Below are positions 3,001-63,972 of a stretch of DNA of 64,000 bases, piece by piece. The notes beneath the pieces were generated by a model, which was not told the origin of the DNA, ran no database searches, and saw only the letters and a list, made by a program, of their open reading frames with translations. The DNA comes from Eledone cirrhosa. Its lineage: Eukaryota. The DNA is taken from assembly GCA_964016885.1 (NCBI GenBank), contig OZ024764.1, positions 22,506,001-22,570,000 on the forward strand. Reading direction: 5' to 3'. Within the stretch, counting starts at the first letter, position 1, and each line of letters starts with the position of its first letter. Position numbers and translations under genes: made by a program.

Positions 3001-3108
3001 ATTCTGAAGGAACTTATCCACTTGTGTTGATATAAGTGATGCTATGACTTTCCTCTAAGCATTGTGTCATTATATATGTTATTATAAACGTGAATAAATT
3101 GAATTTAT
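1..3108 (+). mobile_element. CRE-clade (RT + restriction-like endonuclease) non-LTR retrotransposon, degenerate; 5' end outside the window
   Basis: Fragmented frames give RT motifs (KLDLRNAFNSVSR, GVQQGDP) and a C-terminal C/H-rich knuckle plus RLE motif (GKRPDGLTLCPWSRGRCLIWDVTV, FETFGGVGP). Several stops, frameshifts and deletions. AT-rich 3'UTR with AATAAA near 3094. The right junction matches the empty site at about 55610-55630. Confidence 0.85.
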
Positions 3109-3359
3109 AGTGTGATAATAGGCCACACCTCACACCCTAGGGGTTAACTACACACTTTGAGGCAAGCCAACACACTGGCAGCATTACAACGGGTGATGGT
3201 GAGGCTAAGGTGCTGAAATAACCAGGTCCCCTCACGGGTATCACCTGACGCCTCTGTAAGGTGAGGCTAAGGTGCTGAGATAACCAGGTACTCTTACTGA
3301 TATCACCTGACACCTCAGTAAGGTGAGGCTACGGTGCTGAAATAACCAGGTACCCACAC
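3109..3359 (-). mobile_element. Older CRE 3' fragment (antisense) with a 62-bp tandem amplification, about 3 copies
   Basis: Reverse strand translates to LTEASGDTREGTWLFQHLSLTITRCNAASVLACLK, homologous to the CRE C-terminus at about 2660-2765. Confidence 0.8.
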
Positions 3360-16569: not shown

Positions 16570-18556
16570 GAGGCATAACAAACTGAGGGTTCCCCAAGGG
16601 CCACATAGGTCACATGTGTTGTCTGAGGGTTGCACACTACAACTAATTATGTACACAACAACTAATTAAAGTCATTTAATAAAATATATTGCAGAAAGAT
16701 TTGTTACTTAAATTTAGAAACATACAATGTCCATACAAATGTTTTAGCAGCATTCATGAATACAAAGTAATGAAGTAGTTTGACAAAAAAATAAAATTTC
16801 ACATGTCAACATATACTTGCAGATTGTAACAGCAACAAATACATTGTACACAAATAACAACAGTTGAAAACTGAACATTTATTTGCTACTATTCAACCAT
16901 TTTTAGTGTTTTGTCCTGAGGCTTGACACTTCTTTCTGTTGACAATGTTTGGTATGTCTGGCTGAAATGTCTGTACAGTTCCAACTTTAATCAGAAATGA
17001 CAAGTGTTGATCTGTCAGCCTTGTTCTCTGAGAAGTTTTTGTTAAGCTAAGTACAGACTCAGTATGGGCAGTGATTTTCAGCTCTTTGCACATAAGAAAA
17101 TGAATTAAATTTCATCTGACAACGGAGACTTCCATAAGCTAAGTTTTCTAATGAAGAACTTGATGTCATCATACAACTGAGTGATGGGTTTGTTTTTACC
17201 TTGTAATTTCAAATTAAGATCAGTTAATTGTGCAGTAATATCCATAACAAAAGCCAGATGTTGGAGCCAACTTTCATCTTTTATTTCATCTGTGTTTTGA
17301 CCTTTCATCTCCAAAAACATAATTATTTCAACAAATAGAATCTTTTCAGCACTTTGTGACATGTCAACCAGCAGACTTCTGTGTAGAATGGAACATCGGT
17401 GAACTGATTATCCATATCTTCCAACAACTGGCTGAACTGACGGTGGTTGAGAGCATGGCCTCTGATTTAGTTCACTGTCTTTTTGACCAAGCTAAGCACA
17501 TGATGCAATTTTAAAATCTTTGAACATAAATTTTGCTGATGAATAATACAGTGAAAATGTGCAAATGATGAATCTAGATATGAGTTTTCTATTTTTGTTT
17601 GTAACTTGGCAGCAACACCATTATGTCTACCAACCATATTTGCAGCACTGTCAGTAGATAAACATGCAAGTTTACTCAGATCAAAACCATGCAGACACTG
17701 CTTTACCTTCTCAAAGATGTCCTGGCTTGTTATAGTGTCATGCATGGGGACCAGTTCAATCAGTTCTTCATAAATATTAAATTCACTGTCACAGGCCCTG
17801 ATGAAGAATGCAAGCTGTACTATTCCAGTGATGTCAACAGTCTCTTCAATAGCAATAGAAACATGTTCAAACCTTGATGATACAGCCTTTAACTGTTGTT
17901 TCAGATCACCTGACATTTCATTAATCTGTTCAGCAACAGTGTTCCTGGTTAATGAAATGTCTTTGAATAACTCTGCTTTCTCCGGACAATTTCAGCTGTT
18001 TTTACAAGACATTGCTTTACAAAATCTCCTTTACTGTAAGATTTCCCACTCATGGCAATCATTTGACTGAGTTCATAGCTTGCAGTAACAGAAGTGACAT
18101 CCTCTTCCTGAATTAACATAAAACAGGTCTATTGCTGTGTCAAGTTAGACTTCAATTCCTTGAGTCTTGAAACACACATTGGGCCTTCATATTTATCGTA
18201 AGATTGATGGTTTGTTTCATAATGTCTTTTTAAATTGTACTCTTTTGGCGTGGAGATGTAGTTGTTACAAATAAAAAGTGTATTTTTCTGTTCACCATTG
18301 GGCAAAAATACTGTAATTCCCACTTTTCTTGAAACACTTTCCCTTCTTCGTTCAATTTCCTTTTTCTCTTAGCTGGAGGAGCACTAACCACGTGATTAAT
18401 GGAAGTTAAAAGTAGTTGACAAAATTTGCAAAAAAAAATAATTGTATCGAAAATGTTTTAAATTTTATATTACGAAAATGAAACATGCGCGCACTGTAAA
18501 AACCTTTGTGTGGGGCGCAGGTTTGCTTGCCAAGGGCCGCATGTTTGACATGTCTG
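16570..18556 (-). mobile_element. hAT (Buster-type) copy 2, defective
   Basis: Same TSD ATGTAGGT (16562-16569, 18557-18564) and the same internal deletion as copy 1, so it was copied with the segment. Confidence 0.9.
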
Positions 18557-19649: not shown

Positions 19650-19822
19650 TTCTGAGACAGTCTTACCTCGAGTGATAGCAAGGCTAAGATGTTGGAACTA
19701 CCAAACAGCCTCATATGTATCACCTGACACCTCGGTAAGGAGAGCTGCCAACGATAACAAGAACCTCGTTGTCAGGGACCTATCTCCTCCAAACTTCTCC
19801 AACACCACAGACTAGAATATTC
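19650..19822 (-). mobile_element. Old CRE 3' fragment (copies at about 34840-35010 and 53570-53743)
   Basis: Minus-strand IF*SVVLEKFGGDRSLTTRFLLSLAALLTEVSGDTYEAVW*FQHLSLAITRGK matches CRE IFQPVAFETFGGVGPLTARFLSSLAARLIEVTG. Confidence 0.75.
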
Positions 19823-20039
19823 TACTCTTTATTCCCTATCAAATATTTTTCAGTCTAGTCATTTATCTTGTATCTTGTATATGTATTTTCAAAACTAACT
19901 GTCACATTTGTGAGACCCCAGTTAGTATTGTTTTCGTCTCCCTCCCACATCCTACATGCTGTAGTAAAAGTGAGGGTCACTGCTTCTGTAGACGAACGAA
20001 ATAAAAGTTAAACTACCAGTAATTATCGGCAAAGTATTT

Positions 20040-20365
20040 ATTCCAGTCTGTGATGTTTGAGAAGCTGGGCTGCTGACAACGAAGTTGTGGTCACTGTTGG
20101 CGGCTGGCTTTACCGAAGTACCCGATGACTCTTGTGAGGGTACTTAGCTGTTCTGGCGGTTTAGCCTCCATGACATGATTTTACTGAGATACCCGGTGAT
20201 CTCTATCAGGGTACTTAGCTGTTCTGGCGGTTTAGCCTCCATATGACCCGATCTTACCGAGATACCCGGTGATCTCTGTCAGGGTACTTAGCTGTTCTGG
20301 CAACTTAGCCCCCATATGACCCGATTTACCGAAGTACCCGGTGATCTCTGTAAGAGTACTTAGCT
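20040..20365 (+). mobile_element. Old CRE 3' fragment with a ~72-bp tandem amplification (4 copies; 2 at about 35230-35412; 4 at about 53960-54286)
   Basis: GLLTTKLWSLLAAGFTEVPDDSCEGT*LFWRFSL resembles the CRE C-terminus. gggtacttagctg recurs at 20138, 20209, 20282 and about 20354. Confidence 0.65.
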
Positions 20366-21017
20366 GGGCATAGGTTAAGTTTTACGTCCTCGAAAATGAA
20401 ACTAGGTTTTCTGACATGTGAATGTGTTTTTTTTTTTTTACAATGAAATTTACGATACACTTTTTGTTTATTTACAACAGGTCTCTATAGTGATATGGTG
20501 TTAATTAGTATTGCGTGTGTGATTATTTTCTCTTATATATATATGTGTGGGTGTGTATATGTGTGTATATATATGTGTGTCTGTATGTATATATATATAT
20601 GTGTTTGTATATATATATGTGTTTGTGTCATCATCATCGTTTACATGTTTTTACCCAAATCCCTTATCATTCTCTGTCCTTCCTATGACCCGGCCTTAAT
20701 TTGTTTATAGTTGGTGCCAACTTTGGCAAGATATTACAAAAACATCTAAACGATGATGATGACACAAACACATATATATATACAAACACACACATATATA
20801 TATATACATACAGACACACATATACACAGCCACACATATATATATATGAAATAATAATCACACACGCAATACTAATTAACACCATATCACTATAGAGACC
20901 TGTTGTAAATAAACAAAGAGTGTATCGTAAATTTCATTGTAAAAAAAAACAAAAAACACATTCACTTGTCAGAAAACCTAGTTTCATTTTCGAGGACGTA
21001 AAACTTAACCTATGCCC
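20366..21017. mobile_element. 652-bp foldback DNA element with 6-bp TSD TTAGCT
   Basis: Arms at about 20366-20652 and 20738-21017 are near-perfect reverse complements (GGGCATAGG...CCTATGCCC). TTAGCT lies on both sides. Empty site at about 35405-35410. Confidence 0.9.
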
Positions 21018-21104
21018 TTAGCTGTTCTATTTTAATTACATTTACTGATTTCAACTTCACTTTTTTTTATTACAAACTTTACATAATTTAATTCGGTAAA
21101 AATA

Positions 21105-21240
21105 TTTTTACGTCACAAAAAAACATTGAAGCATGCGCAGTGGTGCAGTTGTCGACTTCCTGTCCACGTGTTAGTCTTCCTACAACAACATTTAGACAAC
21201 ATTTCTGTAAATACTAAACACCTGAGACTATAATGTAAGT
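21105..21240 (+). promoter_or_regulatory. Predicted promoter and non-coding exon 1 of ZNF-2
   Basis: Cluster of TTACGTCA (ATF/CREB-like), GCATGCGCAG (NRF1-like), ACTTCCTG (ETS) and CACGTG (E-box), then donor AAT|GTAAGT at 21235. Found once upstream of ZNF-2, -3 and -4. Confidence 0.6.
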
Positions 21241-21439
21241 ATTATGTCTATTAATATTGTAGATTTAAGCTCACTTTTCACATCACAAATATATATTTTC
21301 TTGTTTGTTTCATTACTGGAAATATAAAATGTTATCGTAATTATCTATATTTTACCTACCTCTAATTAATTAAAGTGAAAACTTTTGTTGTTGCTGAAAA
21401 ATAAATTAACAAAACTAAATATTTAAATATTCTAAAGGT

Positions 21440-21989
21440 CCTTTTTATATTATGTGATGATATAATTAATATATTTTATTACAATTGTATAAATTTACAG
21501 TAGAATAACGTTGTAAATATGTTTTAAATATATACATAAATAACATAAGTGTGTAAATAACATTATAAATTGCTGGCAATTCCTTGAGAAAGACATTACA
21601 AATATATTGTCTAAACTGTGTATAATAATATAATTTATTGAACAATAATGATAAAGGAAAGAAAAACACAGTGGGAGATGGCAATTCACCACCAGGTGTG
21701 ATAATAGGCCACACCTCACACCTTAGGGGTTAACTACACACTTTGAGGCAAGCCAACACACTGGCAGCATTACTAAGGTGTTGAAATAACCAGGTACCCT
21801 CACGGGTATCACCTGGTACCTCAGTAAGGTGAGGCTAAGGATCTGAAATAACCAGGTACCCTCACGGGTATCACCTGACACCTCGGTAAGGTGAGGCTAA
21901 GGGGCTGAAATAACCAGGTACCCTCACGGGTATCACCTGACACCTTGGTAAGGTGAGTCTAAGGGGCTGAAATAACCAGGCACCCTCAC
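21440..21989 (-). mobile_element. Old antisense CRE 3' end (3'UTR plus C-terminal segment as a 62-bp tandem repeat, about 4 copies); empty site for the young CRE
   Basis: The reverse complement shares atatatttaaaacatattt...gttattctactgtaaattta with the CRE 3'UTR (2930-2975). gaaataaccagg recurs at 21783, 21845, 21907 and 21969. Confidence 0.75.
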
Positions 21990-22347
21990 GGAAACGACTA
22001 GATTTGTAGAAAAAGTAGGGTGAAAGTATACGAAGAGATGTAGTTTCACAGATCTACTCACACCTCACGTTGGGTGGGAAATAATTATTTTTCTTAGATT
22101 TTTTTCTAGACCCCTTTTCAATATTTTCTCTCAACCCCTTAGATACTTGCAATAGACGTTTTATTCCCCAGTATTAGGGTTAGGGTTTCCGTTTTCAGGA
22201 AGAAAAGTCGATTGCAAACATCTAAGAGGTCGAGAAATAAAATTAAGGAAAGATAATTATTTCCCAGCCAACTGGAGAAGTGTGTAGCTCTTCTAAACTC
22301 TGATAATCCTGTCTCCCACTTCTTTATCTACAAATCTAGTCGTTTCC
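21990..22347. mobile_element. About 360-bp foldback element, copy 2
   Basis: Same terminal inverted repeats as 3360-3719; central ttagggttaggg. Confidence 0.7.
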
Positions 22348-22489
22348 TGCTACTTTGAAGGCCCTATTTATTGATAACACCACTTGTAAATCTTTGTCAA
22401 CTTTTCATACGTAAATTGTGAATCAGTTATTTTTAAACAAACTATCAAAGAAGTGATCTCACAGTAACTGTGTTTGATTTAATCAACTT

Positions 22490-22700
22490 ATTCCCCCCCC
22501 CCCCCAACATTGTAGACCTTGTGTCTAAATCAGAAACTATTATAAGATCTTAAATCAACCTCGTAAAGATGAAGGGCAAAGCTAACCTCTGCGGGATTTC
22601 AACCCTTTATGTTATGAGTTCAAATCCCACCAAAGTTAACTTTGTCTTTCATTCTAACGGAGTGGATAAATTAAAGTTCCAGTAATCTACTGGGGTCTGA
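22490..22700. mobile_element. SINE fragments (Nin/Deu-like core) in opposite orientations; copy at about 56470-56680
   Basis: gagttcaaatcccaccaaagttaactttgtctttcattc..gataaattaaag on the plus strand and its decayed reverse complement immediately upstream. Confidence 0.5.
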
Positions 22701-22755
22701 GATATTAAGGTTTGAGTAGATTCTATCTTTTTGTGTGTTTGTATTTATAATCTTA

Positions 22756-22920
22756 CTAGAACACCTGTGACCTGTTGGGTCACGTTCCCTTTAAAAATAA
22801 TATTTAAATAATTAAAATATACACAGACATGTATATAATGTAAAATGAAATTAGTAGGCCCATGTATATATATATATATATATGCGTGTGTGTGTATATA
22901 TATATATATGCGTGTGTGTG

Positions 22921-22991
<71 letters not shown>

Positions 22992-23265
22992 GTCACTTGT
23001 TATAATTTTATAACTTTGTTCAACAGCACCACCAGCTATCTCTCTCACACACACCCATTATCTTTCTCTCTATTTATAAAGGTGCCAGAAAAACCCCATA
23101 TCTCGGGAACCTGTACATTGATTTACGTGAAACTTATTTTATCCCATTTGTATTCCCATTTCAGGGTCAACTTCCTTTCAAACTATTTTCCCATTATGCC
23201 CCGTTTTGGCTGTATTACATTACAGACAAGACACAATCACAGAGTTTTAGGTTTATAATGTTATA
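22756..23265 (-). mobile_element. Non-autonomous Helitron, independent antisense insertion (copy at 56736 to about 57200)
   Basis: Minus-strand 3' end GTGACC-CAACA-GGTCAC-aggtgtt-CTAG|T. The body is homologous to 14114-14442, with (TA)/(TG) expansions. Confidence 0.7.
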
Positions 23266-23429
23266 GTATCATGATAGGGTAATACAGTTATTTATAGACC
23301 TGTGGTAAATGTTGGTTCAGTCCACCCTGGGGGGTGTAAGTGTTGGTTCAGTCTACCCTGAGGGGTGTCAGTGTTGGTTCAGTCTACCCTGAGGGGTGTC
23401 AGTGTTGGTCAATGATAACCTTTATAACT

Positions 23430-23845
23430 AGAGACCTGTTGGTGAGGACAAGCTGGATGTGGTGACATCTTTCTGCTACCTGTGTGACATGTCAGCTGGA
23501 AGTGGAGCCAAGTTCACTGCCATCGTGCTGTGCCACTCCACAGGTAACAAGTTTAGGCAGCTTCTCCTAATCCTCAAGACATGCTGGCTACCATTAGACA
23601 CCATGGGGCAGGTTTATAACACCTGTGGGAGAAGTGTGTTGTTTCATGCCAGCGAGACCTGGGCCATGTTATCTGACTGTCTGAATTGACTCTGAAGAAA
23701 TGACAGAGCTATGATCCACTGGATGTGTTGTGTGACCATTGAGGATGATGTCAGCTCAACTGAGCTCTTAAAAAAACTGCTGATCGACAACCTCAAGGAT
23801 GTGTTTCACAGGAGACACATGCACTGGTATGGCCATGTTGTGCAT
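23430..23845 (+). mobile_element. RTE RT fragment, sense (copy at about 57330-57745)
   Basis: VVTSFCYL, RSVLFHASETW and HWYGHV motifs. Confidence 0.65.
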
Positions 23846-26130
23846 TCTCTCTCAACTCATCTATGCTTGGTCGTTGATGCACATTGACATTGCACATCCA
23901 ACGGAGCATACTTGCTTCATTTCTCTCCAGTCGTTGCATATCCTCCACAGTTGCTGTCCATGTCTCACTACCGTGCAGCATCACACATCTCACGCAGGCA
24001 TCACCAGCCATTCGTTCTTAGGGAGAAACGCTTCTTTGTCAACAGAGGAAGCAGCTCCCTAAACGTCTTCCAACCTGTCCTTATTCTAGATACTATGGCC
24101 TCGGAACACCCTCCTCCCATGCTAATCTGATCACCTAGGTATCAGAAGCTATCAACCACCTCTGTAGATCCTACCTGCATTTGAAAAATGTGTCTATCAC
24201 TGCGACTTCTACTGTCAAATTTCCCTGTACATCTACTGCATATGTAGTTTTCCCTACCTGTTAGTTTGCCTGCTATCCCACTACATTTCTTGTGTACCCA
24301 AAATCTGCATTGTGTACATTATAGAATTTATGCCAGTTCCTTTTCTACATATCGAACAAGGCCATTTCCCTGATGGAATGACAGTTTTGTCCTCTTTTCT
24401 ACTCATCAACACTTTTGTCTTAGCTAGGTTCACTCTCAGTCCTCTTGCTTCCAACTGCTGTTGCAATAGCCAGAATTTATTCTCTAGCTCCTCTACTGAT
24501 TCTGCTATAAGAACCAGATCGTCAGCATAGAGAAGTTCCCATGGGCAGCCAGTCTTAAACTCTTCTGTTATGACTTGGAGGACTATAATGAACAAGAGCG
24601 GGCTGAGGACCAAACCCTGATGTACTCCTGCATCTGTAATTCCTCACTAAACTCCATGCCTACCCTCACTTTACTGACAGTACCTCTGTACATAGCTTGC
24701 ACTGTCCTCACAAGCCATTCCTCTACACCTAGTTTCCTTAGGGACCACCAGATGACAGATTGGGGTACTCTATAAAAGGCCTTCTCTAGGTCAACAAAAA
24801 CTAAGTATAGTGGTTTTCTTCTCTAAGAACCTCTCTTGTAGTTGTCTCACTAAGAAGAGGGCATCTGTTTGACCCTTTCTCTAAGTTGCGCTAGTATTCT
24901 TTCTGTCACTTTCATAACCTGATCCATCAGTTTTATACCCCTATAATTACTCCCCTCCAGAACATCCCCTTTACCTTTACCTCAATTTATGAGAATACTG
25001 CTGCACCAGTCTTTGGGGGTGACACCACCATATATAGCTTGATTAATGATGCATGCAACCAGTTTAATTCCTACTTCTCCTGATGCCTTCAGCATCTCAG
25101 CAACTATCCCCAACAGTCCAGCGGACCTACCATTTTTCATTTCCTTAATTGCCTCTTGGACCCTATAGTCGTCAATCTCAATAGCTGGTCCCTCTGGCGG
25201 GTCTACTGAGGGTAGTTTCTCTCCCTTTCATTCTCTACATTCATCAGTCTCTCATAATGACATTTCCAGGCCTCCTTTTTTTTGAGAATCAGTGACACTA
25301 AGTGCACCAACATCCTGATTTACACTGACACACTGCCTTGCAATGTGGATCACCGCACATCTCTGATCTCCCTATCGCAGGACATTGGCAAACCTTCTCC
25401 TTTCAGCCTCCCTGCATGTTAAGTAAACCTGACATCTAGCTTCTCTCTTAGCGGCTGTGTATCGGTCTCTACCCCTACCATTTTTCAAAGCCTTTTGTCT
25501 CTAATGGCTCTATCTACCGTGCTGTTCCACCACCAGGTCACCCTCTGTTTGGTTGGAGCTCTGCTCCAGCCACAAGTTTCTTCAGTAACCTGCAGTAAGT
25601 TGTAACGTAAGAAATTCCAATTATCATCCATGTCATACGACATTGAAGGGCTTTCCTAAATTTATATTTTAGTGAAAGGTCTTTTAGTTTCCAGACCTTC
25701 CTTTTTCAAACCTTCTTGTATGTCTCATTTTGTCTCTTGGGGGGTTACATTGTTCCCTGGGGTATGCCTTAGTATTTGACACCATCTATCTGTCTTACTC
25801 CCTAACTAGCAAGAAGTAAATCTGGCTCATGTGCTCACCTGATTGGTAGGTTATTAGGTGGTTGGTAGGTTTCTTGAAGTGTTGTAAATGGTTAGTTCAC
25901 TTGCATCACAAAATACAAGAAGCCTCACTCCTTCTTCGTTTCTTGAGTCATAACCATGACCACCATGTACCCCAGTATATCCATCCTCGAACTGTCCAAC
26001 ATGACCATTGAAGTCCCCTGCTATTATAACTAGGTCTCTGTCATTGTGGTTATCTCTACTTATTCCTTTTCTACATATGGAGCAGGGCTACTTTCCTGAA
26101 GGGGTCAGGGTCTTCTCTCCTATCCATTAG
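23845..26130 (-). mobile_element. RTE-clade LINE (EN end plus RT), degenerate
   Basis: LSPLLFIIVLQVITEEFKTGCPWELLYADDLVLIAES, GLRVNLAKTKV, MLHGSETW and EN motif GDFNGHVG. Many frameshifts. Confidence 0.85.
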
Positions 26131-26385
26131 CACTTTAGTTTTGGCTAAGTATATTCTCAGAACTTACCATTTCAAATTCTATATCTATAGCTGGTCATCT
26201 ACATAGAGAAGTTTCCATAGACAGCCAGTCTTAAACCTCTCTGTTATGGCTTGGAGAACTATGATGAACAACAGTGGGCTAAGAACTAAACCATGATGAA
26301 CTCCTACCTGTACCTTCAATTCCTCACTAAACACACTTTACTGACAGCTTCTCACAAGCCATTCTTCTACACCTAATTTCTTTAA

Positions 26386-26593
26386 CCCTTTAGTATATAA
26401 ACTGGCCATATCTGGCCAGAATTGTCTCATGTCTTTCTGTTCAAACTGGCCGTAACTGGTCACTTATACTTATGTTAAGGTATTGTTCTCAAAATAAGTA
26501 ACATCAAAATCTCATAGATTTGATATTATGAGTGATAAAGCATTTACTGTGAAAATATAATAGTAAATATAGAGTAATGTGAATACTAAAGGG
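26386..26593. mobile_element. piggyBac-type MITE
   Basis: TTAA-CCCTTTAGTAT...ATACTAAAGGG-TTAA. Confidence 0.75.
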
Positions 26594-27050
26594 TTAATCT
26601 GATGTCACTAATAACTACTTTTATCTGTCAGTTTAATCTAATGTCACTAATAACTACTTTTATCAGTCAGTTTAATCTACTACCACTAATAACTAACCTA
26701 TGTTAGTCAGCACATTCTTCACCAAAGAAGGCCTTAGTATTTATTACAGTCCATTTATCAATATAGAAATATTATATGAAATTTGTACTGATGTATTACA
26801 AGTTTCTCAGTATCTTATAATGTTCTTTTATTATTTCAGAATACCAGAGGACATTGGCATTAAAGAGCACGTTACATCAGACATATCCTCAACATTAACC
26901 ATTTCTAATGAAATACACTAACCATCATTTTCAAATAATTTTGAAAACACTCAACACTTTGAAGTGATTTAGTAATATAACTAAATTTCTCAGTATTAAG
27001 CTGTGAATTATGTGAGAAACTGAGGTGATTGATATCTTTTAGTAGGAGAT

Positions 27051-28490
27051 ATGTCGAAAAATATAGTAAAATCACCATTCCACTGTGATATCTGTGGTAA
27101 ATCATTCTCTCGTAGTAATCACCTAACTACTCACAAACGTATTCATACAGGAGAGAAGCCATATCACTGTGATATCTGTGGTAAATCATTCAGTCGCAGT
27201 AATACCTTAACTAATCACAAACATATTCATACAGGAGAGAAACCATATCACTGTGATATCTGTGGTAAAACGTTCTCTAAAAATAATAACCTAACTACTC
27301 ACAAACGTATTCATACAGGAGAGAACCCATATCACTGTGATGTCTGTGGTAAATCATTCACTTGTAGTCATCACCTAACTACTCACAAACGTATTCATAC
27401 AGGAGAGAAGCCATATCACTGTGATATCTGTGGTAAATCATTCAGTGACAGTAGTAGCTTCAGAGTTCACAAACAAATTCATACAGGAGAGAAACCATAT
27501 CACTGTGACATCTGTGGTAAAACGTTCTCTAAAAACAATAGCGTAACTACTCACAAACGTATTCATACAGGAGAGAAGCCATATCAATGTGACATCTGTG
27601 ATAAATCATTCTCTCAAAGTAGTCACCTAACTACTCACAAACGTATTCATACAGGAGAGAAGCCATATCAATGTGATATCGGTGATAAATCATTCAGTGA
27701 CAGTAGTAGCTTCAGAGTTCACAAACAAATTCATACAGGAGAGAAGCCACATCACTGTGACATCTGTGGTACATCATTCAGTCACAAAAGTAACTTAACT
27801 ACCCACAAACGTATTCATACAGGAGAGAAGCCATATCAGTGTGATATCTGTGGTAAATCATTCTCTCGTAATAACCTAACTACTCACAGACGTATTCATA
27901 CAGGAGAGAAACCATATCACTGTGATATCTGTGCTAAAACATTCACTAAAAATAATAACCTAACTACTCACAAACGTATTCATACAGGAGAGAACCCATA
28001 TCATTGTGATATCTGTGGTAAATCATTCTCTCAGAGTAATCAGCTAACTTCTCACAAACGTATTCATACAGGAGAGAAGCCATATCACTGTGACATCTGT
28101 GATAAATCATTCTCTCATAGTAAAACCTTAACTACCCACAAACGTACTCATACAGGAGAGAAGCCATATCACTGTGATATCTGTGATAAATCATTCTCTC
28201 AGCATAAAACCTTAACTATCCACAAACGTACTCATACAGGAGAGAAGCCATATCACTGTGACATCTGTGGTAAATCATTCTCTCATAGTAATACCTTAGC
28301 TATCCACAAACGTACTCATACAGGAGAGAAGCCATATCATTGTGACATCTGTGGTAAATCATTCGCTGACAGAACTAGCTTAGCTACCCACAAACGTACT
28401 CATACAGGAGAGATTTACCTCATCTGTGGTAAATCATTCTCTCTTAGAGGTAACTTAACCAAGCATGTGCGTATTCATACAGAAGTTTAG
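27051..28490 (+). CDS. Tandem C2H2 zinc-finger protein, 17 finger units (2 lack a Cys) (ZNF-2)
   Basis: 479-aa ORF. Finger 8 (CDIG) and finger 17 (EIYLIC) are degenerate; finger 10 is one residue short. Confidence 0.92.
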
Positions 28491-33935: not shown

Positions 33936-35489
33936 GATATATATATATATATATAAATGAAGAATATAGAAATTATTGTAGCAAAAAGCCAACAGTATTC
34001 CATTATATATATGTATATATAGTATAAAAGAGAAAACACAGGTAAGCATTAAGAGAAGGATTTTATCCAGGTATTTACGACCGTTTCATTGGTAAGTGCA
34101 ACCTTATATTTCTATCCTGCAAATAGCAGCCACTCAATTATAATTGTTGTTCTGTTCACAGTCCAAATTTTCAAAATAGTAAGTTACTCTTGAAATAATT
34201 CTTAATATATAGAGAAAAACATTTATTTGGAATTGTATTTACTAGTATAGAGAGAGAGGAATCAGAAGGTGAGGGGACAGACGGAATAGTATAGAGAGAG
34301 AGGAAGGGGGAAGAGGTAGGAAGTAGAGTGACAAACTGAGATGGGGGGAGGGGTAGAGGTGGCAGGATTCTTTGGTCAGTTTTGACAGCAGACTTCATGT
34401 CGTGGAATGTAGTGAGTTAAAGAGAATTAAATTGATCATTTTTGGAGGGATGGATATATATATATATAGTTAAATATTAGACAGGAACAAAAAACAGGCA
34501 GTGCAAATGGTAGTTTATACCGAGAGAGAGACAGACAAACACATCTATACCCCTACTACAGTAAAACGAAACATATGTAAGGGGAGACAACTCTCGTTAC
34601 ATCCCCCCTTCTTTTTGATATACGTCCTTTACATGCTTTGTTCAATGGAATCTGCTTTATTTTGTGTCCTAAGTAGATTTCTGTTTAATTATTTACGAGA
34701 TTCACAATGATTCACGTAACCAAGTTACTTACATAGAGATATATTTCACATAGAATCACAACAAATGAAAATATTAAGTCAACACTCTGTCAATCAGTCT
34801 CACGTCACATGGGGTGCCGGAGTCTCCCTCTAATACTTTCTGAGACAGTCTTACCTCGAGTGATAGTAAGGCTAAGATGTTGGAACTACCAAACACCCTC
34901 ATATGTATCACCTGACACCTCGGTAAGGAGAGCTGCCAACGATAACAAGAACCTCGTTGTCAGGGACCTATCTCCTCCAAACTTCTCCAACACCACAGAC
35001 TAGAATATTCTACTCTTTATTCCCTATCAAATATATTTCAGTCTAGTCATTTATCTTGTATCTTGTATATGTATTTTCAAAACTAACTGTCACATTTGTA
35101 AGACCCCAGTTAGTGATGTTTTTCTCTCCCTCCCACATCCTACATGCTGTAGTAAAAGTGAGGGTCACTGCTTCCGTAGACGAACGAAATAAAAGCTAAA
35201 CTACCAGTAATTATCGGCAAAGTATTTATTCCAGTCTGTGATGTTTGAGAAGCTGGGCTGCTGACAACGAAGTTGTTGTCACAGTTGGCGGCTGGCTTTA
35301 CCGAAGTACCCGATGACTCTTGTGAGGGTACTTAGCTGTTCTGGCGGTTTAGCCTCCACGTGACGCGATCTTACCGAGATACCCGGTGATCTCTGTAAGA
35401 GTACTTAGCTGTCCTATTTTAATTACATTTACTGTTTTCACCTTTATTTTTTTTTATTACAAACTTTACATAATTTAATTCGGTAAAAA

Positions 35490-36093: not shown

Positions 36094-39000
36094 ACGAGGT
36101 AAACATTTTCAACTTTCCCCTTTTTTTGCTTTGTCCGAGACAACTCAAAATATTCTTCAAGGAACTGGATTTTCCATTCGGTTGGATCGAACGGATTTTA
36201 CCATTTATAATCTACGGAGAGGAATAACAGATGTTCGGAGGAAAAAAGAATTGTTTGTGGCAACAACGTAGGGAACCAACCTGGAGCAATTGTATCACAC
36301 AATTATACTTTCCTCCTTAACATACACTTACAATTTTTCAAAATCAAACCCCACAAATATAAAATATAAATAATTATAAATGGCGAGGAACCATCCCATC
36401 TCCCTCTTGAAATAACCTGAATCTATTTATAGTCAGGTGTGACTGAAAGGTCAATCCATACTTCCATTCTATTTCACAGAATTAGAAGCTTTGACCACTT
36501 GATAGAATTCAGGTCCAGTAATGTAATCACTCCGTAATTGTAAACATCTTGTATCACTATCATTCAGGTTTTGATTTTACTCAAGTCTTGCCCATGTTTT
36601 TTGTTTTTTTTCTTTTTTACACAAACTCACAATTTCGGTTTTTACTGCGGATTTACCCATGCGAACTATTACACAAACTCACAGCCTTAGATTTTGTATT
36701 TCTAGCGTTTTTATTTTCCTTCTCTTTGCATGTTCAGTGCTCTTTCTCTCCCACTGTATTTACCTGCCTCTCACAAGACCACACTCCTCTCTACGCACTC
36801 ATCATCTTCTCACTCCTTCTCCACCTTCCATCCCTCCCCTTGCTCAACCCTTACTTCCTCCTCACGCACAGCCCACCTAGGTATTCGTTCAACCCGCCGG
36901 TGGCCCGATGTTTCGACCGAACTATTACCGGCGATTGCCGATTGCTAAAGTTGCCACCACTTTAACCTAGTCCACTCTAGGTGGCGGTGGCATGCGTTGA
37001 ACGACCAAGAGACCTGCTTGGTGGAACGACTATGTGACAACCGGTCAGCCTTCGACCTCTCATTCTCCACCAACTGCAGCACGCACGAGAGGAGCTAACT
37101 TGACCCCACCTACCCCTCCTCTCCTTCACGGCAGATTCCGAACGAATCCAACCCGGCCAACCACACCACCCCTACAACTGTTAGCTCACTACCCAACCTC
37201 CGCTTTAGTCCCACCGTTAGAACCACTGTTGTCTCCTTTACTGACTCACTCCCTTCAGCGAATTCCAACGCTGGCCCTCTACTGCCGGCTGTTGCCAGCC
37301 CGCCACCTGATTGCGCCCTCTGTGCCCGCACTAACCAGTACTTAAAGACAATTAAGTCACCTATGCCACGCAAGCTACCACAGAAGCTGTGTCGGCATCA
37401 CCAAAGCTCAAGCAAAAAGGCTTCAACACTGGACCTGTCATCGGTGCCACTTCAGCTCTGACTATTCCGTGGGGATGACCAACACTCTACCGTCGACTTT
37501 CCACAGCCCCCCCAGGGCTTCACCAAATCATAGCTCGTTAACCGGACCCTTAAGGGAGCTCGGAACAGCTTTGCAGGTGCCCTCTCTAATTTACTGAAAA
37601 ACGTTTGCTCGTCCAACAATAGACTGGCAGAAATTGTTTTTGTTTCCCCTCATCTCTTTTCACGTGCACAATGCGAACTCGGGTTCCCTCAAGTCCTCTC
37701 TCAAGCGGCAGTTCCAGCTGTTTGAGTCCACCCCAACCACGTCTCATCTCAGTTCGTCTCCGAGCTCGGTGTCCACCAACAGACAACCGGTAGACCTCAA
37801 GCGAGCCGTCAATGCCAAATTCAGCGAATTTGACATTAAAGGGGCTGTCCTCCCTTGCTCCATGCAATTCTGACTCTCGTGAGCGTCTGAAGGAGAAGCA
37901 CCCCCAGATGATCAGCAACACTGGCCCGAACCACCAGAATACTTGAGACCGGTTTACACCACCAATATCATCAGAAAGGCGATTTCATCCTTCCCCGCTG
38001 GGTCAGGCGCGGGAATTGATGTCCTTCATCCTCAACACCTCAAGGATGGTATCTCCTTATCGGCCGGTGATGCCGGACTCGAGCTCTTGGAGAGTCTGAC
38101 CCAGTTTGTGAATCAGTGAACGTTCTCCCGTTCATCCGCCCACTGTTCTTCGGTGCGAAGCTATTTGGTCTCACCAAGCCCAACGGGGACCTGCGCCGCA
38201 TTGCGGTTGGCTGCACACCTCGCCGCCTCACTGCAAAGGCGTGATTGCTGTTGGTCTCCAACCCACTGGCGGAGGAATTTTCCCCCATCCAGCTGTGGGT
38301 GGGTACCAGGTTGGGATGTGTGGCTGCTGTCCACGCTGCCAGAACATTTGCCAAGTTGCCCTCCTCATCCCCCAAGGTCATCCTCAAACTTGACCTCAGG
38401 AATGCCTTCAACTCCGTCAGCCGTAACATCGTCCTCGGCTCAGTAAGAGAGAGGGTCCCACAACTCTACCACTTTGCTTGGCAGGCTTATCGGGAGCCCT
38501 CCTACCTCTCTTTCAGTGACCAGATCATCACCTCTGCCTCAGGAGTCCAACAGGGTGACCCACTCGGGACCCCCCCCCCCCCCCGCACTGGACATTGATG
38601 ACGTCACCAAGATGGGGGCTGAGTTGGACCTCAATGTCTGTCAGCTCGACGACGCCTGTTTGAGGGGAACTCCGGATATGGTTCTCGCCACTGCCAACAG
38701 GATGGTGGAGGAGCTTCGCGCCGGGGTCTCCAGATCAATAGCTCCAAATGTGAGCTCTGGATCCTCAACCACCCGGCTTCTTAACACCAACAGCTGATCG
38801 ACCTGTTCACAGAGTCCTTCCCTTCCATCACAGTCCCTCCCCCGTCGGCTTGGTGCTCCTTAGGAGCCCCGATCACAGACCTGGCCTTCGAGTCAACCAT
38901 CCAATCGAAGATGGTTGGCCTTGAGCAGCTGCTGAGGAATATTGAAGATATCGAACCCCATCAAGGTTTCTTCTTACTCAGGAACTACCTGTCTATTCCT

Positions 39001-40367
39001 AAGCTTCTGTATCTGCTCAGGGTCAGCCCCTCTCACAGATTTCCATCCTGCCTCGAACACTTCGACGACCTAATCTTCGAGAGACTCGAGTGTCTGGTCA
39101 ATGTTAGTAAGTGTTCGTCCCTCTCTCTCCCCTGCTTCCTTTCCTCCACCCAAGCTTGCAGCATCCTCTCCTCTCCAACATGGACTAGTTCCAACAGGGA
39201 GTTGTGTGAAGCTCTCCAGCAATGGAGTGAGTTGGGCTTGTCTCTTCCTGAGAAGGTGGAGGACAGTCGAAGTCAGAGAACTTGGGACAGGATACGTTGG
39301 AATGCCACCTTCGACTCCCTCTTCGTCCTCTCAGATCGGTTTACAAGGTGCCGCTTACCATCTGCCAGTGCCAAATACTCCGGTGACTGGGTCGATGCCT
39401 TACCCGTGGCCAACGTTGGAGGCCTACTCAGCCTGGATGAACTTCGTGTCTCCATCACCCTCAGAGTGGGAGCTGACGTCTGCATGGGTTTGAGATGTGG
39501 CTAACTCCTCGACTCCACAGGCCCCCACGGTCTTTCTTGCTGCCTGAATGCCGGCCACTTCGCCCGTCACACGGAGCTAAACTTTATTCTGAAGAGAGCT
39601 TTGGCCCGGGCAAACATCGCCTCAGTCTTGGAACCATCTGGGTTGTCCAGAAGTGGCGCAAAAGACCTGACGGCCTTACCCTGTGCCCCTGGTCGAGAGG
39701 CAGGTGCTTAATCTGGGACGTCACTGTTAGTGACTCCTTTGCTCTTTCCCACATCCTTGATGCTGCGGTAAGGACGAGAGCCACAGCTTCGGCAGCCGAG
39801 CGGAGTAAGACCCTCAAATACTCTGATCTGTCGGCCAGCTACATTTTTCAGCCTGTGGCTTTCGAGACGTTTGGGGGAGTCGGGCCGCTGACTGCGAGGT
39901 TCCTTTCCTCACTGGCGGCTCGCCTTATAGAGGTAACTGGCGAAATCGCGAGGGCGCTTGGCTGTTCCAGCACCTCAGCCTCGCCATCACTCGATGTAAC
40001 ACTGCCAGTGTGCTGGCTTGCCTCAAAACTCATTAGAGAGGTTTCCCAGTACCCCTCGTTGCTGTCTTTTGCTCTGGTGTTGGCTCCGTTGTCCACCCCT
40101 TCCTTTACATTTTCTTTAATATTGCAACATTGAAGGAATTTATCTTTCATTGTATCATCCTTTATAGTGTTACCGAGGCATTTGTAATGTTATTTATATA
40201 TTTAAAACATATTTCTTATGTTATTCTACTGTAAATTTATTTATATGCTCTGTTTATATTTTCATTCTGAAGGAACTTATCCACTTGTGTTGATATAAGT
40301 GATTCTATGACTTTCCTCTAAGCATTGTGTCATTATATATGTTATTATAAACGTGAATAAATTGAAT
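36094..40367 (+). mobile_element. CRE-clade non-LTR retrotransposon, near full length, degenerate, with an unexplained 5' extension
   Basis: Inserted after gaccaccaa (compare the empty site at 55611-55630). RT and RLE motifs as in copy 1 but with fewer deletions (keeps AAERSKTLKYSDL). Confidence 0.88.
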
Positions 40368-52233: not shown

Positions 52234-54286
52234 ATGTGGGTTACCAACACTAGGGAGGGCAGCATGTCCTTCAATGTCTTCTGCTACATTAACTACCAGG
52301 AGGTCACCACATGACACAAAGACATTTCAAAGAGGGGTCATAAAAGAACTAAATACGAAAGTACCCACAGCAACAAGCAAATAATTGAGCTTTGGGTCTG
52401 GGTCAAGGGGCAGAAGTGCTGCGCCCTGTGGATAAGACTGCAAAAGTATTCGCCCCGGACGATGGACAGTGACACCCACTGCAACAGCCACCCCAACCTC
52501 ATGGGACTCCCTCTTCAGAAGAGCCACCAACGTTCTGATCTTAGAGAGGAGCTTGGCAGTATGGGGTCCAAGTACTTCTGAGGTCTCGATGGTGACCAGT
52601 GTGAAGAGACCTACAATTGATCTAATCCCAGTTATGTTGGACTGTAATATACTGGGGTATAGAGAGGCCTTAACCTGTCACAGCCGGGCCACCCAGGGTT
52701 GTGTCATCTAGGTACTAGACAGGGGTAACTAGACCATGTTGTCAACTGTCAGCACCAATAGGAGTGAGGCGAGTGGGTCCCCTTGCGAGACACCATATAT
52801 AAAAACGTATTTGCTAATTACTTTAGTGAATAATTTGTTTCATACGTAATTATTACTTTTAACACAATAGGATTTTGTACACGTGTTTGTTTGAAAACAT
52901 CTTTCAAAGAAGTATGAGACAGTCTTTTGTAGTGTTTATCATAATAAATTACTGTATGTTGAGCTGTTTTAACTTCTCCACCTTCTATTATTTTATATTG
53001 TTTTTGTAAGAAAACGATATCTTTTTCATATATATATATGAAGGCGCGTGGCTGAGTGGTTAGAGAATTGGGTTCGGAATTGTGAAGTTGTGAGTTCGAT
53101 TCCCAGACCGGGCGATGCGTTATGTCCTTGAGCAAGACATTTTATTTCACGTTGCTCCTTCTACCTGGAGTTGCGACCGATAGATAGTATTAGCAATTGG
53201 AAAGACCAATGGAAACATTGTTTCCTCGGTCCGATTTGACGAAAAGTCGATCATAAAAAATATATATAGACAGAGAGAGAGACAAACAGACACTACTGTA
53301 TTACATATGTAAGGGGAGATAACTCTCGTAACATCCCCCCCTTCTTTTTGATATACGTCCTTTAAGTACTTTGTTCAATGGAACCTGCTTTATTTTGTGT
53401 CCTAAGTAGATTTCTGTTTAAGTATTTACGAGATTCACAATGATTCACGTAACCAAGTTACTTACATAGAGATATATTTCACATAGAATCACAACAAATG
53501 AAAATATTAAGTCAACACTCTGTCAATCAGTCTCACATCACATGGGGTGCTGGAGTCTCCCTCTAATACTTTCTGAGACAGTCTTACCTCGAGTGATAGC
53601 AAGGCTAAGATGTTGGAACTACCAAACACCCTCATATGTATCACCTGACACCTCGGTAAGGAGAGCTGCCAACGATAACAAGAACCTCGTTGTCAGGGAC
53701 CTATCTCCTCCAAACTTCTCCAACACCACAGACTAGAATATTCTACTCTTTATTCCCTATCAAATATATTTCAGTCTAGTCATTTATCTTGTATCTTGTA
53801 TATGTATTTTGAAAACTAACTGTCACATTTGTGAGACCCCAGTTAGTATTGTTTTCGTCTCCCTCCCACATCCTACATGCTGTAGTAAAAGTGAGGGTCA
53901 CTGCTTCCGTAGACGAACGAAATAAAAGTTAAACTACCAGTAATTATCGGCAAAGTATTTATTCCAGTCTGTGATGTTTGAGAAGCTGGGCTGCTGACAA
54001 CGAAGTTGTGGTCACTGTTGGCAGCTGGCTTTACCGAAGTACCCGATGACTCTTGTGAGGGTACTTAGCTGTTCTGGCGGTTTAGCCTCCATGACATGAT
54101 TTTACTGAGATACCCGGTCATCTCTATCAGGGTACTTAGCTGTTCTGGCGGTTTAGCCTCCATATGACCCGATCTTACCGAGATACCCGGTGATCTCTGT
54201 CAGGGTACTTAGCTGTTCTGGCAACTTAGCCCCCATATGACCCGATTTACCGAAGTACCCGGTGATCTCTGTAAGAGTACTTAGCT

Positions 54287-54943
54287 GGGCATAGGTTAAG
54301 TTTTACGTCCTCGAAAATGAAACTAGGTTTTCTGACAAGTGAATGTGTTTTTGTTTTTTTTTACAATGAAATTTACGATACACTCTTTGTTTATTTACAA
54401 CAGGTCTCTATAGTGATATGGTGTTAATTAGTATTGCGTGTGTGATTATTTTCTCTTATATATATATGTGTGGGTGTGTATATGTGTGTATATATATGTG
54501 TGACTGTATGTATATATATATGTGTGTTTGTATATATATATGTGTTTGTGTCATCATCATCGTTTACATGTTTTTACCCAAATCCCTTATCATTCTCTGT
54601 CCTTCCTATGACCCGGCCTTAATTTGTTTATAGTTGGTGCCAACTTTGGCAAGATATTACAAAAACATCTAAACGATGATGATGACACAAACACATATAT
54701 ATATACAAACACACATATATATATATATATACATACAGACACACATATACACACCCACACATATATATATATAAGAAATAATAATCACACACGCAATACT
54801 AATTAACACCATATCACTATAGAGACCTGTTGTAAATAAACAAAGAGTGTATCGTAAATTTCATTGTAAAAAAAACAAAAAACACATTCACTTGTCAGAA
54901 AACCTAGTTTCATTTTCGAGGACGTAAAACTTAACCTATGCCC
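54287..54943. mobile_element. Foldback element copy 2, TSD TTAGCT
   Basis: As 20366-21017. Confidence 0.9.
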
Positions 54944-55027
54944 TTAGCTGTTCTATTTTAATTACATTTACTGATTTCAACTTTCATTTTTTTATTACAA
55001 ACTTTACATAATTTAATTCCGTAAAAA

Positions 55028-55165
55028 TATTTTACGTCACAAAAAAACATTGAAGCATGCGCAGTGGTGCAGTTGTCGACTTCCTGTCCACGTGTTAGTC
55101 TTCCTACAACAACATTTAGACAACATTTCTGTAAACACTAAACACCTGAGACTATAATGTAAGTA
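55028..55165 (+). promoter_or_regulatory. Predicted promoter and exon 1 of ZNF-4
   Basis: Same motif cluster; donor at 55159. Confidence 0.6.
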
Positions 55166-55364
55166 TTATGTCTATTAATATTGTAGATTTAAGCTCACTT
55201 TTCACATCACAAATATATATTTTCTTGTTTGTTTCATTACTGGAAATATAAAATGTTATCGTAATTATCTATATTTTACCTACCTCTAATTAATTAAAGT
55301 GAAAACTTTTGTTGTTGCTGAAAAATAAATTAACAAAACTAAATATTTAAATATTCTAAAGGTC

Positions 55365-55975
55365 GTTTTTATATTATGTGATGATATAATTAATATATTT
55401 TATTACAATTGTATAAATTTACAGTAGAATAACGTTGTAAATATGTTTTAAATATATACATAAATAACATAGGTGTGTAAATAACATTATAAATTGCTGG
55501 CAATTCCTTGAGAAAGACATTACAAATATATTGTCTAAACTGTGTATAATAATATAATTTATTGAACAATAATGATAAAGGAAAGAAAAACACAGTGGGA
55601 GATGGCAATTGACCACCAAGTGTGATAATAGGCCACACCTCACACCTTAGGGGTTAACTACACTCTTTGAGGCAAGCCAACACACTGGCAGCATTACTAA
55701 GGTGTTGAAATAACCAGGTACCCTCACGGGTATCACCTGGTACCTCAGTAAGGTGAGGCTAAGGTGCTGAAATAACCAGGTACCCTCACGGGTATCACCT
55801 GGTACCTCGGTAAGGTGAGGCTAAGGATCTGAAATAACCAGGTACACTCACGGGTATCACCTGACACCTCGATAAGGTGAGTCTAAGGGGCTGAAATAAC
55901 CAGGTACCCTCACGGGTATCACCTGACACCTTGGTAAGGTGAGTCTAAGGGGCTGAAATAACCAGGTACCCTCAC
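55365..55975 (-). mobile_element. Old antisense CRE 3' end with a 62-bp repeat, about 5 copies
   Basis: As 21440-21989. Confidence 0.75.
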
Positions 55976-56333
55976 GGAAACGACTAGATTTGTAGAAAAA
56001 GTAGGGTAAAAGTATACGAAGAGATGTAGTTTCACAGATCTACTCACACCTCACGTTGGGTGGGAAATAATTATTTTTCTGAGATTTTTTTCTAGACCCC
56101 TTTTCAATATTTTCTCTGAACCCCTTAGATACTTGCAATAGACGTTTTATTCCCCAGTATTAGGGTTAGGGTTTCCATTTTCAGGAAGAAAAGTCGATTG
56201 CAAACATCTAAGCGGTCGAGAAATAAAATTAAGGAAAGATAATTATTTCCCAGCCAACTGGAGAAGTGTGTAGCTCTTCTAAACTCTGATAATCCTGTCT
56301 CCCACTTCTTTATCTACAAATCTAGTCGTTTCC
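55976..56333. mobile_element. About 360-bp foldback element, copy 4
   Basis: Same terminal inverted repeats as 3360-3719. Confidence 0.7.

Positions 56334-61954: not shown

Positions 61955-63972
<2,018 letters not shown>

What the first reader, a model, noticed from the sequence alone, without database searches (positions are those of the whole stretch)
19650..21989. Four CRE-derived pieces crowd the ZNF promoter: a CRE family targeting ZNF 5' ends or itself?
Seen: within about 1.5 kb of the predicted TSS lie three differently diverged CRE 3' remnants (minus 19650-19822, plus 20040-20365, minus 21440-21989). In A units a fourth, near-complete CRE is inserted into the 3'UTR of the third. I found no CRE sequence elsewhere in the unit. 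Known: CRE-clade RLE elements are often site-specific (spliced-leader genes in trypanosomatids, telomeric repeats for Cnl1/MoTeR). Inference: a cephalopod CRE lineage may repeatedly home to ZNF promoter regions or to older CRE copies, using a multicopy gene family as a safe haven.
Basis: partly seen in the sequence, partly recalled or inferred. Interest (0 to 1): 0.72.

Follow-up and report, generated by a model that had tools for sequence, protein, structure and literature searches.

The report
Retrotransposon lineage crowds zinc-finger genes
Four broken copies of one jumping-gene lineage surround the start of a zinc-finger gene in what is likely an octopus; they come from three or four old insertions at one spot that was later copied about 200 times, and the same lineage is also over-represented beside unrelated zinc-finger genes, likely because it favours such neighbourhoods rather than a specific DNA sequence.

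Summary
The pieces are real: three 3'-part remnants (F1 minus, F2 plus, F3 minus) and a near full-length copy (CRE4) of an RT + restriction-like-endonuclease LINE lineage flank exon 1 of a C2H2-ZNF gene. They fall into three age strata, so 3-4 insertions; F1/F2 could be one fold-back event. Their recurrence in the array (207 promoter matches) is duplication: 30 of 30 CRE4 copies share one 3' junction. The lineage is dispersed (1,809 motif matches, control 1), with no shared flank, so strict homing is not supported. A soft bias is: the lineage occurs in 11 of 57 windows upstream of ZNF fingers in other clusters versus 1 of 74 background windows (p=0.0005), in different flanks, and 6 of 21 dispersed copies have a second copy within 5 kb. 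Hits also lie 3' of ZNF exons; RTE LINEs show a weaker excess; a generic promoter control was underpowered. Best reading: regional bias toward ZNF neighbourhoods plus tandem amplification. The scan noted the same ancestral pile-up earlier on another unit of this array (e1-9987525); the cross-cluster enrichment and recurrent 60-73 bp tandem arrays are added here.

The parts
19650..19870 (-). F1: remnant of the ORF end (last part of the endonuclease domain), oldest stratum
   Evidence: tblastx E=2e-14 to the long copy; profile hit 19650-19818; alignment extends to about 19870
19900..20365 (+). F2: remnant of the same region, head to head with F1, ending in a 71-73 bp tandem array (20109-20366, 3.6 copies); no stop codon or 3'UTR
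   Evidence: profile hit 19900-20168, 140 bits; TRF; 65% to CRE4 over 276 aligned bases
20366..21017 (.). Long inverted-repeat (MITE-like) element with 8-bp TSD, present in B units only; not CRE-derived
   Evidence: arms 20366-20439 / 20944-21017 97% complementary; absent at 35404
21110..21165 (+). Predicted promoter motif cluster (CRE/ATF-, NRF1- and ETS-like; motif names recalled); exact TSS not mapped
   Evidence: the only such clusters in the window are the three unit copies; a 26-mer of it has 207 matches, the first 100 listed all on C25:19.1-22.6 Mb
21235..26839 (+). Intron 1 (GT..AG) of the ZNF gene; exon 1 ends at 21234
   Evidence: a contig of run X4 (kind not on record) joins 21234 to the sequence at 26840 (sequence)
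21440..21989 (-). F3: 5'-truncated copy in intron 1: 62-bp tandem array (21773-21991, 3.5 copies), ORF end and 3'UTR; middle stratum
   Evidence: 87% to dispersed copies L067/L109/L064, 76% to CRE4
27033..28490 (+). C2H2 zinc-finger coding exon of this unit (about 16 fingers)
   Evidence: ORF; Pfam zf-C2H2 E=6e-85
36094..40365 (+). CRE4: near full-length, broken copy (PHD-like finger, RT, zinc knuckle, endonuclease, 3'UTR) inserted antisense into F3's 3'UTR in A units; youngest stratum
   Evidence: aligns over about 900 aa to intact relatives; RVT_1 E=3e-4 on one frame; PHD E=1.2e-4, below Pfam cut-off; 92-93% to dispersed L061/L247
1..3109 (+). Second array copy of the same CRE4 insertion
   Evidence: 96-98% to 37245-40363, same 3' junction
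34841..35412 (.). F1 and F2 in the A unit (paralogous copy, no MITE)
53572..55984 (.). F1, F2, MITE, promoter and F3 in the second B unit (97.6% identical paralog)

Best explanation
The four pieces are decayed copies of a dispersed CRE-like LINE lineage that inserted three or four times, in three age strata, around exon 1 of one ancestral zinc-finger gene, and tandem duplication then copied that promoter about 200 times; the repeated hits likely reflect a soft preference of this lineage for zinc-finger-gene neighbourhoods rather than a target sequence. Shown: identity of the pieces, age strata, single origin of the array copies, genome-wide dispersal, lack of a shared flank, and excess of the lineage beside other ZNF genes and beside other copies. 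Inferred: that the excess arises at insertion (target-primed reverse transcription into favoured chromatin) rather than only by retention; that the N-terminal PHD-like finger contributes is speculation.
For: Single origin: 30 of 30 best CRE4 copies are on C25:19.3-23.9 Mb with the same 3' junction, 29 of 30 with the 5' junction; four features, among them two stops and a 63-bp deletion, are shared by 27-30 of 30. Strata: CRE4 92-93%, F3 87%, F1 77-78% and F2 73-74% to their best dispersed matches; F3/CRE4 71%, F1/F3 64%. Dispersal: 1,809 matches versus 1 for the control; 16 loci on 13 contigs outside the array for a CRE4 20-mer. No target motif in the 3' flanks printed. ZNF excess: 11 of 57 ZNF-upstream 10-kb windows versus 1 of 74 background windows (0 of 40 evenly spaced, 1 of 34 flanks of a composite family), p=0.0005, odds ratio 17, 95% CI 2.4-761; same result by blastn. 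The flanks and subfamilies of these hits differ. Reverse direction: 3 of 21 dispersed copies have a ZNF array within 5 kb versus 1 of 74, p=0.03. The excess persists in CpG-poor windows (7 of 33 versus 0 of 33, p=0.011), where RTE LINEs differ little (18 of 33 versus 14 of 33). A diverged paralogous promoter at C25:26.39 Mb (76-78% identical) has its own, younger insertion about 195 bp upstream of the promoter motif. Co-clustering: 6 of 21 versus 1 of 74, p=0.0004.
Against: With protein queries that catch all CRE-like lineages the excess drops to 15 of 57 versus 9 of 74 (OR 2.6, p=0.043), like RTE (27 of 57 versus 16 of 74, OR 3.3); the CRE-versus-RTE difference is not significant (p=0.08). 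Only 1 of 57 ZNF windows holds the exact 20-mer (expected 0.2-0.3, not significant). 0 of 84 copies of the F3-like tag lie within 100 kb of a tagged ZNF site (expected 0.21). Long copies of other CRE-like lineages track YY1-motif promoter tags as well as ZNF tags (5 within 500 kb versus 1.2 expected, p=0.007). 54 of the 74 background windows come from a part of C1 that looks gene-poor (1 of 207 promoter tags, 1 of 116 ZNF tags). Some ZNF windows are paralogous to each other. Even at ZNF-neighbourhood density three further pieces in 2.4 kb are improbable (P about 4e-5 before selection of this locus), so an extra local effect is needed.
Confidence: 0.45

Rival explanations
1. General preference for gene 5' regions or open chromatin; ZNF windows score high only because ZNF genes are compact and numerous, so nearly every window holds a promoter.
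For: Long copies of related lineages lie nearer YY1-motif tags than chance (1 within 10 kb versus 0.02 expected; 5 within 500 kb versus 1.2). Flanks of 21 dispersed copies are CpG-poorer than composite-family flanks (median 0.38 versus 0.74, p=0.0008; versus random 0.52, p=0.057), and octopus methylation marks expressed gene bodies (PMC9476566, passages). Both well-resolved promoters (this one and L236) have insertions within 300 bp of the motif.
Against: 0 of 20 YY1-tagged sites had a piece within 850 bp, but that is only 34 kb with about 0.9 expected and mixed purity. Two of three ZNF-adjacent dispersed copies lie 3' of the ZNF exon. The 27 shorter flanks show no CpG depletion (median 0.61).
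Confidence: 0.22
2. Retention, not targeting: insertions fall broadly on genes but survive beside redundant, multicopy ZNF genes.
For: ZNF genes are highly redundant here (207 units); RTE is also in excess beside ZNF genes; all copies seen are old and broken, so only survivors are counted.
Against: Intergenic and intronic background windows, where insertions should be nearly neutral, hold almost none (1 of 74); overall repeat content is lower, not higher, in ZNF windows (0.40 versus 0.51, measured against background windows).
Confidence: 0.13
3. Self-targeting as in Cnl1: new copies insert into or beside older copies, and the promoter pile-up grew from one chance seed.
For: CRE4 sits inside F3; L081 has a young copy nested in an older 3'UTR; L078, L141, L137, L067, L084 and L195 have adjacent pairs of 65-83% identity. 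Near versus far second copies: 2 of 7 to 3 of 8 within 0.3 kb, p=0.07 to 0.013.
Against: The nested sites differ in position and orientation (sense, antisense, head to head, tail to tail), with no common target; 10 of 12 CRE-positive ZNF windows show no tight pair; several inverted pairs are single-event fold-backs (L038, L148 at 90-91%; inverted 3' termini at the 5' end of copies in L123 and L150). It does not explain the ZNF excess.
Confidence: 0.12
4. Chance and ascertainment: small samples and a gene-poor background inflate a weak effect.
For: Wide confidence interval; the broad protein-level test is weak; the locus was picked because it looked crowded.
Against: Two directions of test and two search methods agree; independent insertion at the paralogous promoter; chromosome-scale density is fairly even.
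Confidence: 0.05
5. Sequence-specific homing to ZNF promoters.
For: Most CRE, R2, R4 and NeSL elements are target-specific (PMC4640811, PMC3636483; passages).
Against: Dispersed copies with unrelated flanks; four different sites and both strands at this promoter; 0 of 99 dispersed loci match this promoter.
Confidence: 0.03

Closest known systems
CRE-clade RLE non-LTR retrotransposons (CRE1, SLACS; MoTeR related) (PMC3636483, PMC4640811; passages)
   Same: Single ORF with RT followed by a zinc knuckle and a PD-(D/E)xK-type endonuclease region; 5'-truncated copies; poly(A) and a 14-bp TSD in at least one copy.
   Different: No fixed target such as spliced-leader exons or telomeric repeats; thousands of dispersed copies; PHD-like N-terminal finger. 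Clade placement by RT phylogeny was not tested.
HERO clade and other non-specific RLE elements (PMC4640811, PMC3636483; passages)
   Same: RLE-bearing yet not site-specific.
   Different: A regional bias toward ZNF neighbourhoods is not described for them in the passages read; membership not tested.
Cnl1 of Cryptococcus (10.1101/2022.06.10.495668; passages)
   Same: Copies found inside or beside earlier copies.
   Different: Cnl1 forms tandem-orientation subtelomeric arrays; here orientation is mixed, pairs are a minority and sites are interstitial.
ERV enrichment in young mouse KZFP clusters (PMC12575710; abstract and section headings)
   Same: Retroelement copy number in a ZNF cluster inflated by segmental duplication: 45 of 84 matches of a CRE4 20-mer lie in the array and stem from one insertion.
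   Different: Non-LTR element, no KRAB; here an excess of independent insertions near other ZNF genes remains after duplication is removed; a role in driving recombination was not tested.

Membership tests
R2-group (RLE) non-LTR retrotransposon | Single ORF with RT domain | tested here: met
   RVT_1 in 8 of 8 intact relatives scanned; CRE4 aligns to them over RT at E down to 1e-99; weak direct RVT_1 hit. CRE4 itself is broken by stops and frameshifts.
R2-group (RLE) non-LTR retrotransposon | C-terminal CCHC knuckle and PD-(D/E)xK endonuclease after RT, no APE | tested here: met
   CRCG..H..SC, RPDG..WD and AE..K..KY segments visible in relatives and in CRE4 frames; reading these as the RLE motif is recalled; no APE family hit.
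R2-group (RLE) non-LTR retrotransposon | TPRT hallmarks: 5' truncation, poly(A) tail | tested here: met
   Variable 5' ends with a common 3' end carrying an AATAAA-type signal; A tracts after it in L123 and L138.
CRE clade | RT phylogeny groups with CRE1/SLACS/CZAR | not testable with these tools
   No named clade references were obtained: relatives are unnamed or 'hypothetical'; PDB search gave no relevant hit. The C-terminal QRLS.A..RGNA signature as a CRE mark is recalled.
CRE clade | Target-site duplication | tested here: inconclusive
   CRE4 has none (one base lost). A 14-bp TSD in the second copy of L123 and an approximate one in L081 were read by eye; the scripted search found no match above 8 bp in the copies with a terminus.
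CRE clade (site-specific members) | Insertion at a fixed site in a multicopy target | tested here: not met
   Dispersed copies with unrelated flanks.
Cnl1-like self-nesting elements | Most copies nested in tandem orientation in older copies | tested here: not met
   About 8 of 48 dispersed non-composite loci have an adjacent second piece, in mixed orientation.
H3K4me3-reading PHD finger | Aromatic-cage Trp in C-x-x-W-[FY]-H (recalled) | tested here: not met
   CRE4 has Ser there and P0030 Cys; relative P0037 keeps Trp.

The most novel reading that the evidence does not exclude
An RLE retrotransposon lineage that has lost sequence specificity uses its N-terminal PHD-like finger to recognise the chromatin of C2H2-ZNF gene clusters, a 'safe haven by chromatin' in the gene family thought to police transposons, and seeds these loci with homologous pieces and minisatellites that can aid their expansion.
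Probability: 0.15. Interest if true: 0.75.

Novelty: new variant of a known kind. Interest (0 to 1): 0.45.

Why it matters
Octopus C2H2-ZNF expansion is linked to transposon activity only by correlation (PMC12988792, PMC10547256; passages). A LINE lineage that is over-represented beside ZNF genes gives a testable physical link, and would be a case of an RLE element trading sequence specificity for regional targeting. If the bias is only generic promoter preference or retention, the locus is an ordinary pile-up multiplied by tandem duplication, like ERVs in mouse KZFP clusters.

Tried and rejected
Counting array units as independent hits: rejected. Exact-motif count in ZNF windows: 1 of 57, not significant and underpowered. 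Distance tests of 84 F3-like and 47 long copies to ZNF and YY1 tags: nothing under 100 kb beyond single hits, weak signals at 0.5-5 Mb for both tag sets. YY1-tagged promoter control: 0 of 20, uninformative at 34 kb. Promoter-motif clusters did not separate window classes (9 of 40 random, 9 of 57 ZNF), so TSS distances in other clusters were not obtained. No RNA holder listed; contigs cannot place the TSS. Two word-indexed protein searches found nothing; the PDB search found nothing relevant. A stem-loop around the repeated unit (z -2.1 to -3.0 in single copies) was weak across 25 aligned copies (-6.4 kcal/mol): not supported. SINE-tail origin of F1-F3 was considered: no shared head upstream of them. 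One ZNF window (L245) was fetched on the wrong side and dropped; five segmental duplicates (L131-L135) were dropped from the background; L193 was not counted as a LINE insertion because it belongs to the composite family; L148 and L038 were not counted as pairs (fold-backs).

Full report
Setting. The window is G000:C25:22,506,001-22,570,000 of a 3.0-Gb genome. It holds four C2H2-ZNF coding exons in 15-21 kb units that are mostly 88-98% identical. The best named protein relative of the element is an Octopus vulgaris hypothetical protein (72% identity), so the host is likely an octopus. A 26-mer of the predicted promoter has 207 matches; the first 100 listed are all on C25:19.1-22.6 Mb.

Observation. 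F1 (minus, 19650 to about 19870), F2 (plus, about 19900-20365) and F3 (minus, 21440-21989) all match the end of the ORF of the long copy CRE4 (36094-40365, also 1-3109). F2 and F3 carry tandem arrays of the same 62-73 bp stretch. F2 lacks the stop codon and 3'UTR. A contig of run X4 joins 21234 to 26840, so exon 1 ends at 21234 and F3 and CRE4 are in intron 1; the TSS itself is not mapped. CRE4 is antisense in F3's 3'UTR with one base lost and no TSD. No other CRE-like piece is in the window.

What the element is. CRE4 aligns over about 900 residues to intact 910-970 aa single-ORF proteins with RT, a zinc knuckle and a restriction-like endonuclease region; 2 of 8 such relatives have an N-terminal PHD above the Pfam cut-off, and CRE4 has a broken PHD-like finger (E=1.2e-4). 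This places it in the RLE group. The label CRE rests on a recalled C-terminal signature; no named reference was available for a tree.

How many events. The 30 best CRE4 matches are all array copies with the same 3' junction (30 of 30; 5' junction 29 of 30) and share lesions (27-30 of 30): one dead insertion multiplied by duplication. In a tree of 43 sequences CRE4 groups with young dispersed copies (support 100/100) and F1 and F2 fall among the oldest with weak support; F3, too short for the tree, is 87% identical to middle-aged copies. F1 and F2 are 70.5% identical, no closer than to dispersed copies, but they are of like age and nearly abut head to head, and single-event fold-backs occur in this lineage (L038, L148, L123, L150). 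So three or four insertions.

Is there a target sequence. A degenerate 20-mer of the ORF end has 1,809 matches against 1 for the control; the first 100 listed spread over 237 Mb of C1. I examined 99 loci outside the array (39 of 3 kb, 60 of 10 kb). 51 belong to a composite family with a fixed 5' boundary and shared head or tail; 48 look like ordinary 5'-truncated retrocopies. None matches this promoter, and the 3' flanks printed share no motif. An F3-like tag gives 136 matches at 3-6 per 100 Mb on six of seven large contigs tested, and 0 of 84 lie within 100 kb of a tagged ZNF site. Strict homing is not supported.

Is there a regional bias. Background: 0 of 40 evenly spaced 10-kb windows and 1 of 34 composite-family flanks hold the lineage. 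ZNF neighbourhoods: of 57 windows upstream of fingers tagged in other clusters, 12 score 18 bits or more, 11 after removing one composite copy; p=0.0005, OR 17, CI 2.4-761. Their flanks differ and they come from several subfamilies. Conversely 3 of 21 dispersed retrocopies have a ZNF array within 5 kb against 1 of 74 (p=0.03); one is upstream of the gene (L137, two copies head to head) and two are 3' of the exon (L108, L139). A diverged paralogous promoter (L236) has an independent insertion about 195 bp upstream of its motif, inside a partial duplicate of the promoter. 6 of 21 retrocopies have a second copy within 5 kb against 1 of 74 (p=0.0004). In CpG-poor windows the lineage is in 7 of 33 ZNF and 0 of 33 background windows, while RTE is in 18 of 33 and 14 of 33.

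Against a ZNF-specific reading. All CRE-like lineages together give only 15 of 57 against 9 of 74 (p=0.043). RTE shows OR 3.3 and the difference from the lineage is not significant (p=0.08). Long copies of related lineages track YY1-motif tags as well as ZNF tags at 0.5-2 Mb. The promoter control (0 of 20 sites, 34 kb) had about 0.9 hits expected and decides nothing. Most background windows come from a gene-poor part of C1. The windows were chosen upstream of fingers, so no 5' versus 3' ratio can be given.

Mechanism. Most likely the lineage inserts by target-primed reverse transcription (inferred from family knowledge; truncation, poly(A) and one clear TSD seen) without a fixed site, but more often in ZNF-gene neighbourhoods and at places already hit. 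One promoter collected three or four copies over a long period and was then amplified. Chromatin guidance is inferred. The PHD-like finger is a candidate but lacks the recalled cage Trp, as earlier notes of this scan also say.

Side result. The same 60-78 bp stretch at the ORF end is tandemly amplified in 15 of 48 dispersed retrocopies, in F2 and in F3, but in 0 of 51 composite copies (three 56-bp rows were spurious and dropped). Periods of 61-62, 63-67 and about 73 bp fit short direct repeats in the element (CTCGCC and GAGGTAAC, read from the sequence). The search motif lies inside the unit, which over-samples arrays, and the composite copies are younger. Slippage during reverse transcription is a guess.

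Literature. Read as passages: PMC4640811, PMC3636483, PMC9115989 (no whole-word 'CRE'), PMC10547256, PMC12988792, PMC9476566, 10.1101/2022.06.10.495668. Abstract and headings only: PMC12513265, PMC12575710. Ten searches listed no paper on CRE-like elements near cephalopod ZNF genes; Repbase Reports, subscription journals and supplementary repeat tables were not seen and may name this family.

Verdict. Observation confirmed with corrections; interpretation partly supported. A real but soft bias, shown on small samples, with the generic-promoter rival open. Interest 0.45.

Noticed in passing
window 20109-20366, 21773-21991; L046, L062, L070, L090, L138, L147 and others: One 60-78 bp stretch at the ORF end repeatedly seeds minisatellites (2-17 copies) in independent retrocopies, in three registers; none in the composite family.
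   Followed up: partly
L033, L066, L069, L074-L076 and 45 more; boundary equals window 39595: Abundant composite non-autonomous family that carries a CRE 3' piece with a fixed 5' end, a shared head and a shared tail; the tail resembles a Helitron-type end (recalled, not tested).
   Followed up: partly
window 37282-37477: Broken PHD-like finger at the N-terminus of CRE4; intact in relatives P0030 and P0037, of which only P0037 keeps the cage Trp.
   Followed up: partly
window 20366-21017 and 54287-54943: 652-bp near-palindromic MITE-like element with 8-bp TSD, about 100 bp upstream of the promoter motifs, in B units only.
   Followed up: no
L123 (second copy), L150, L038, L148: Inverted copies of the 3' terminus or of the 3' part at the 5' end of an insertion, like twin priming or fold-back during reverse transcription.
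   Followed up: partly
L137 (C1:215.32 Mb): A long and a short copy head to head about 3.4 kb from a predicted ZNF promoter, with an IS1016/Merlin-like DNA transposon (label recalled) in between.
   Followed up: partly
L108 (C1:143.39-143.78 Mb): Six-copy duplicated unit with a CRE remnant 0.9 kb 3' of a ZNF exon: a second case of amplification by duplication.
   Followed up: partly
window 21812-21943 in run X4: Summed contig depth rises into the thousands over the repeated unit; the run holds a spliced contig but is not on record as RNA, so expression of the CRE 3' part is only a hint.
   Followed up: no
window 61955-63927: The fourth ZNF exon is split over three frames (two frameshifts): pseudogene or assembly error.
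   Followed up: no
window 10333-11961, 17105-17991, 23440-25740, 31772-33420, 41876-43495: Other decayed elements in the unit: hAT/SPIN-like, RTE-like, Tigger-like and CR1/L2-like (labels recalled; only the RT domain at 41876-43495 confirmed by Pfam).
   Followed up: no
L151-L190 and composite flanks: RTE-like LINEs are in 14 of 33 CpG-poor but 2 of 41 CpG-rich background windows.
   Followed up: partly
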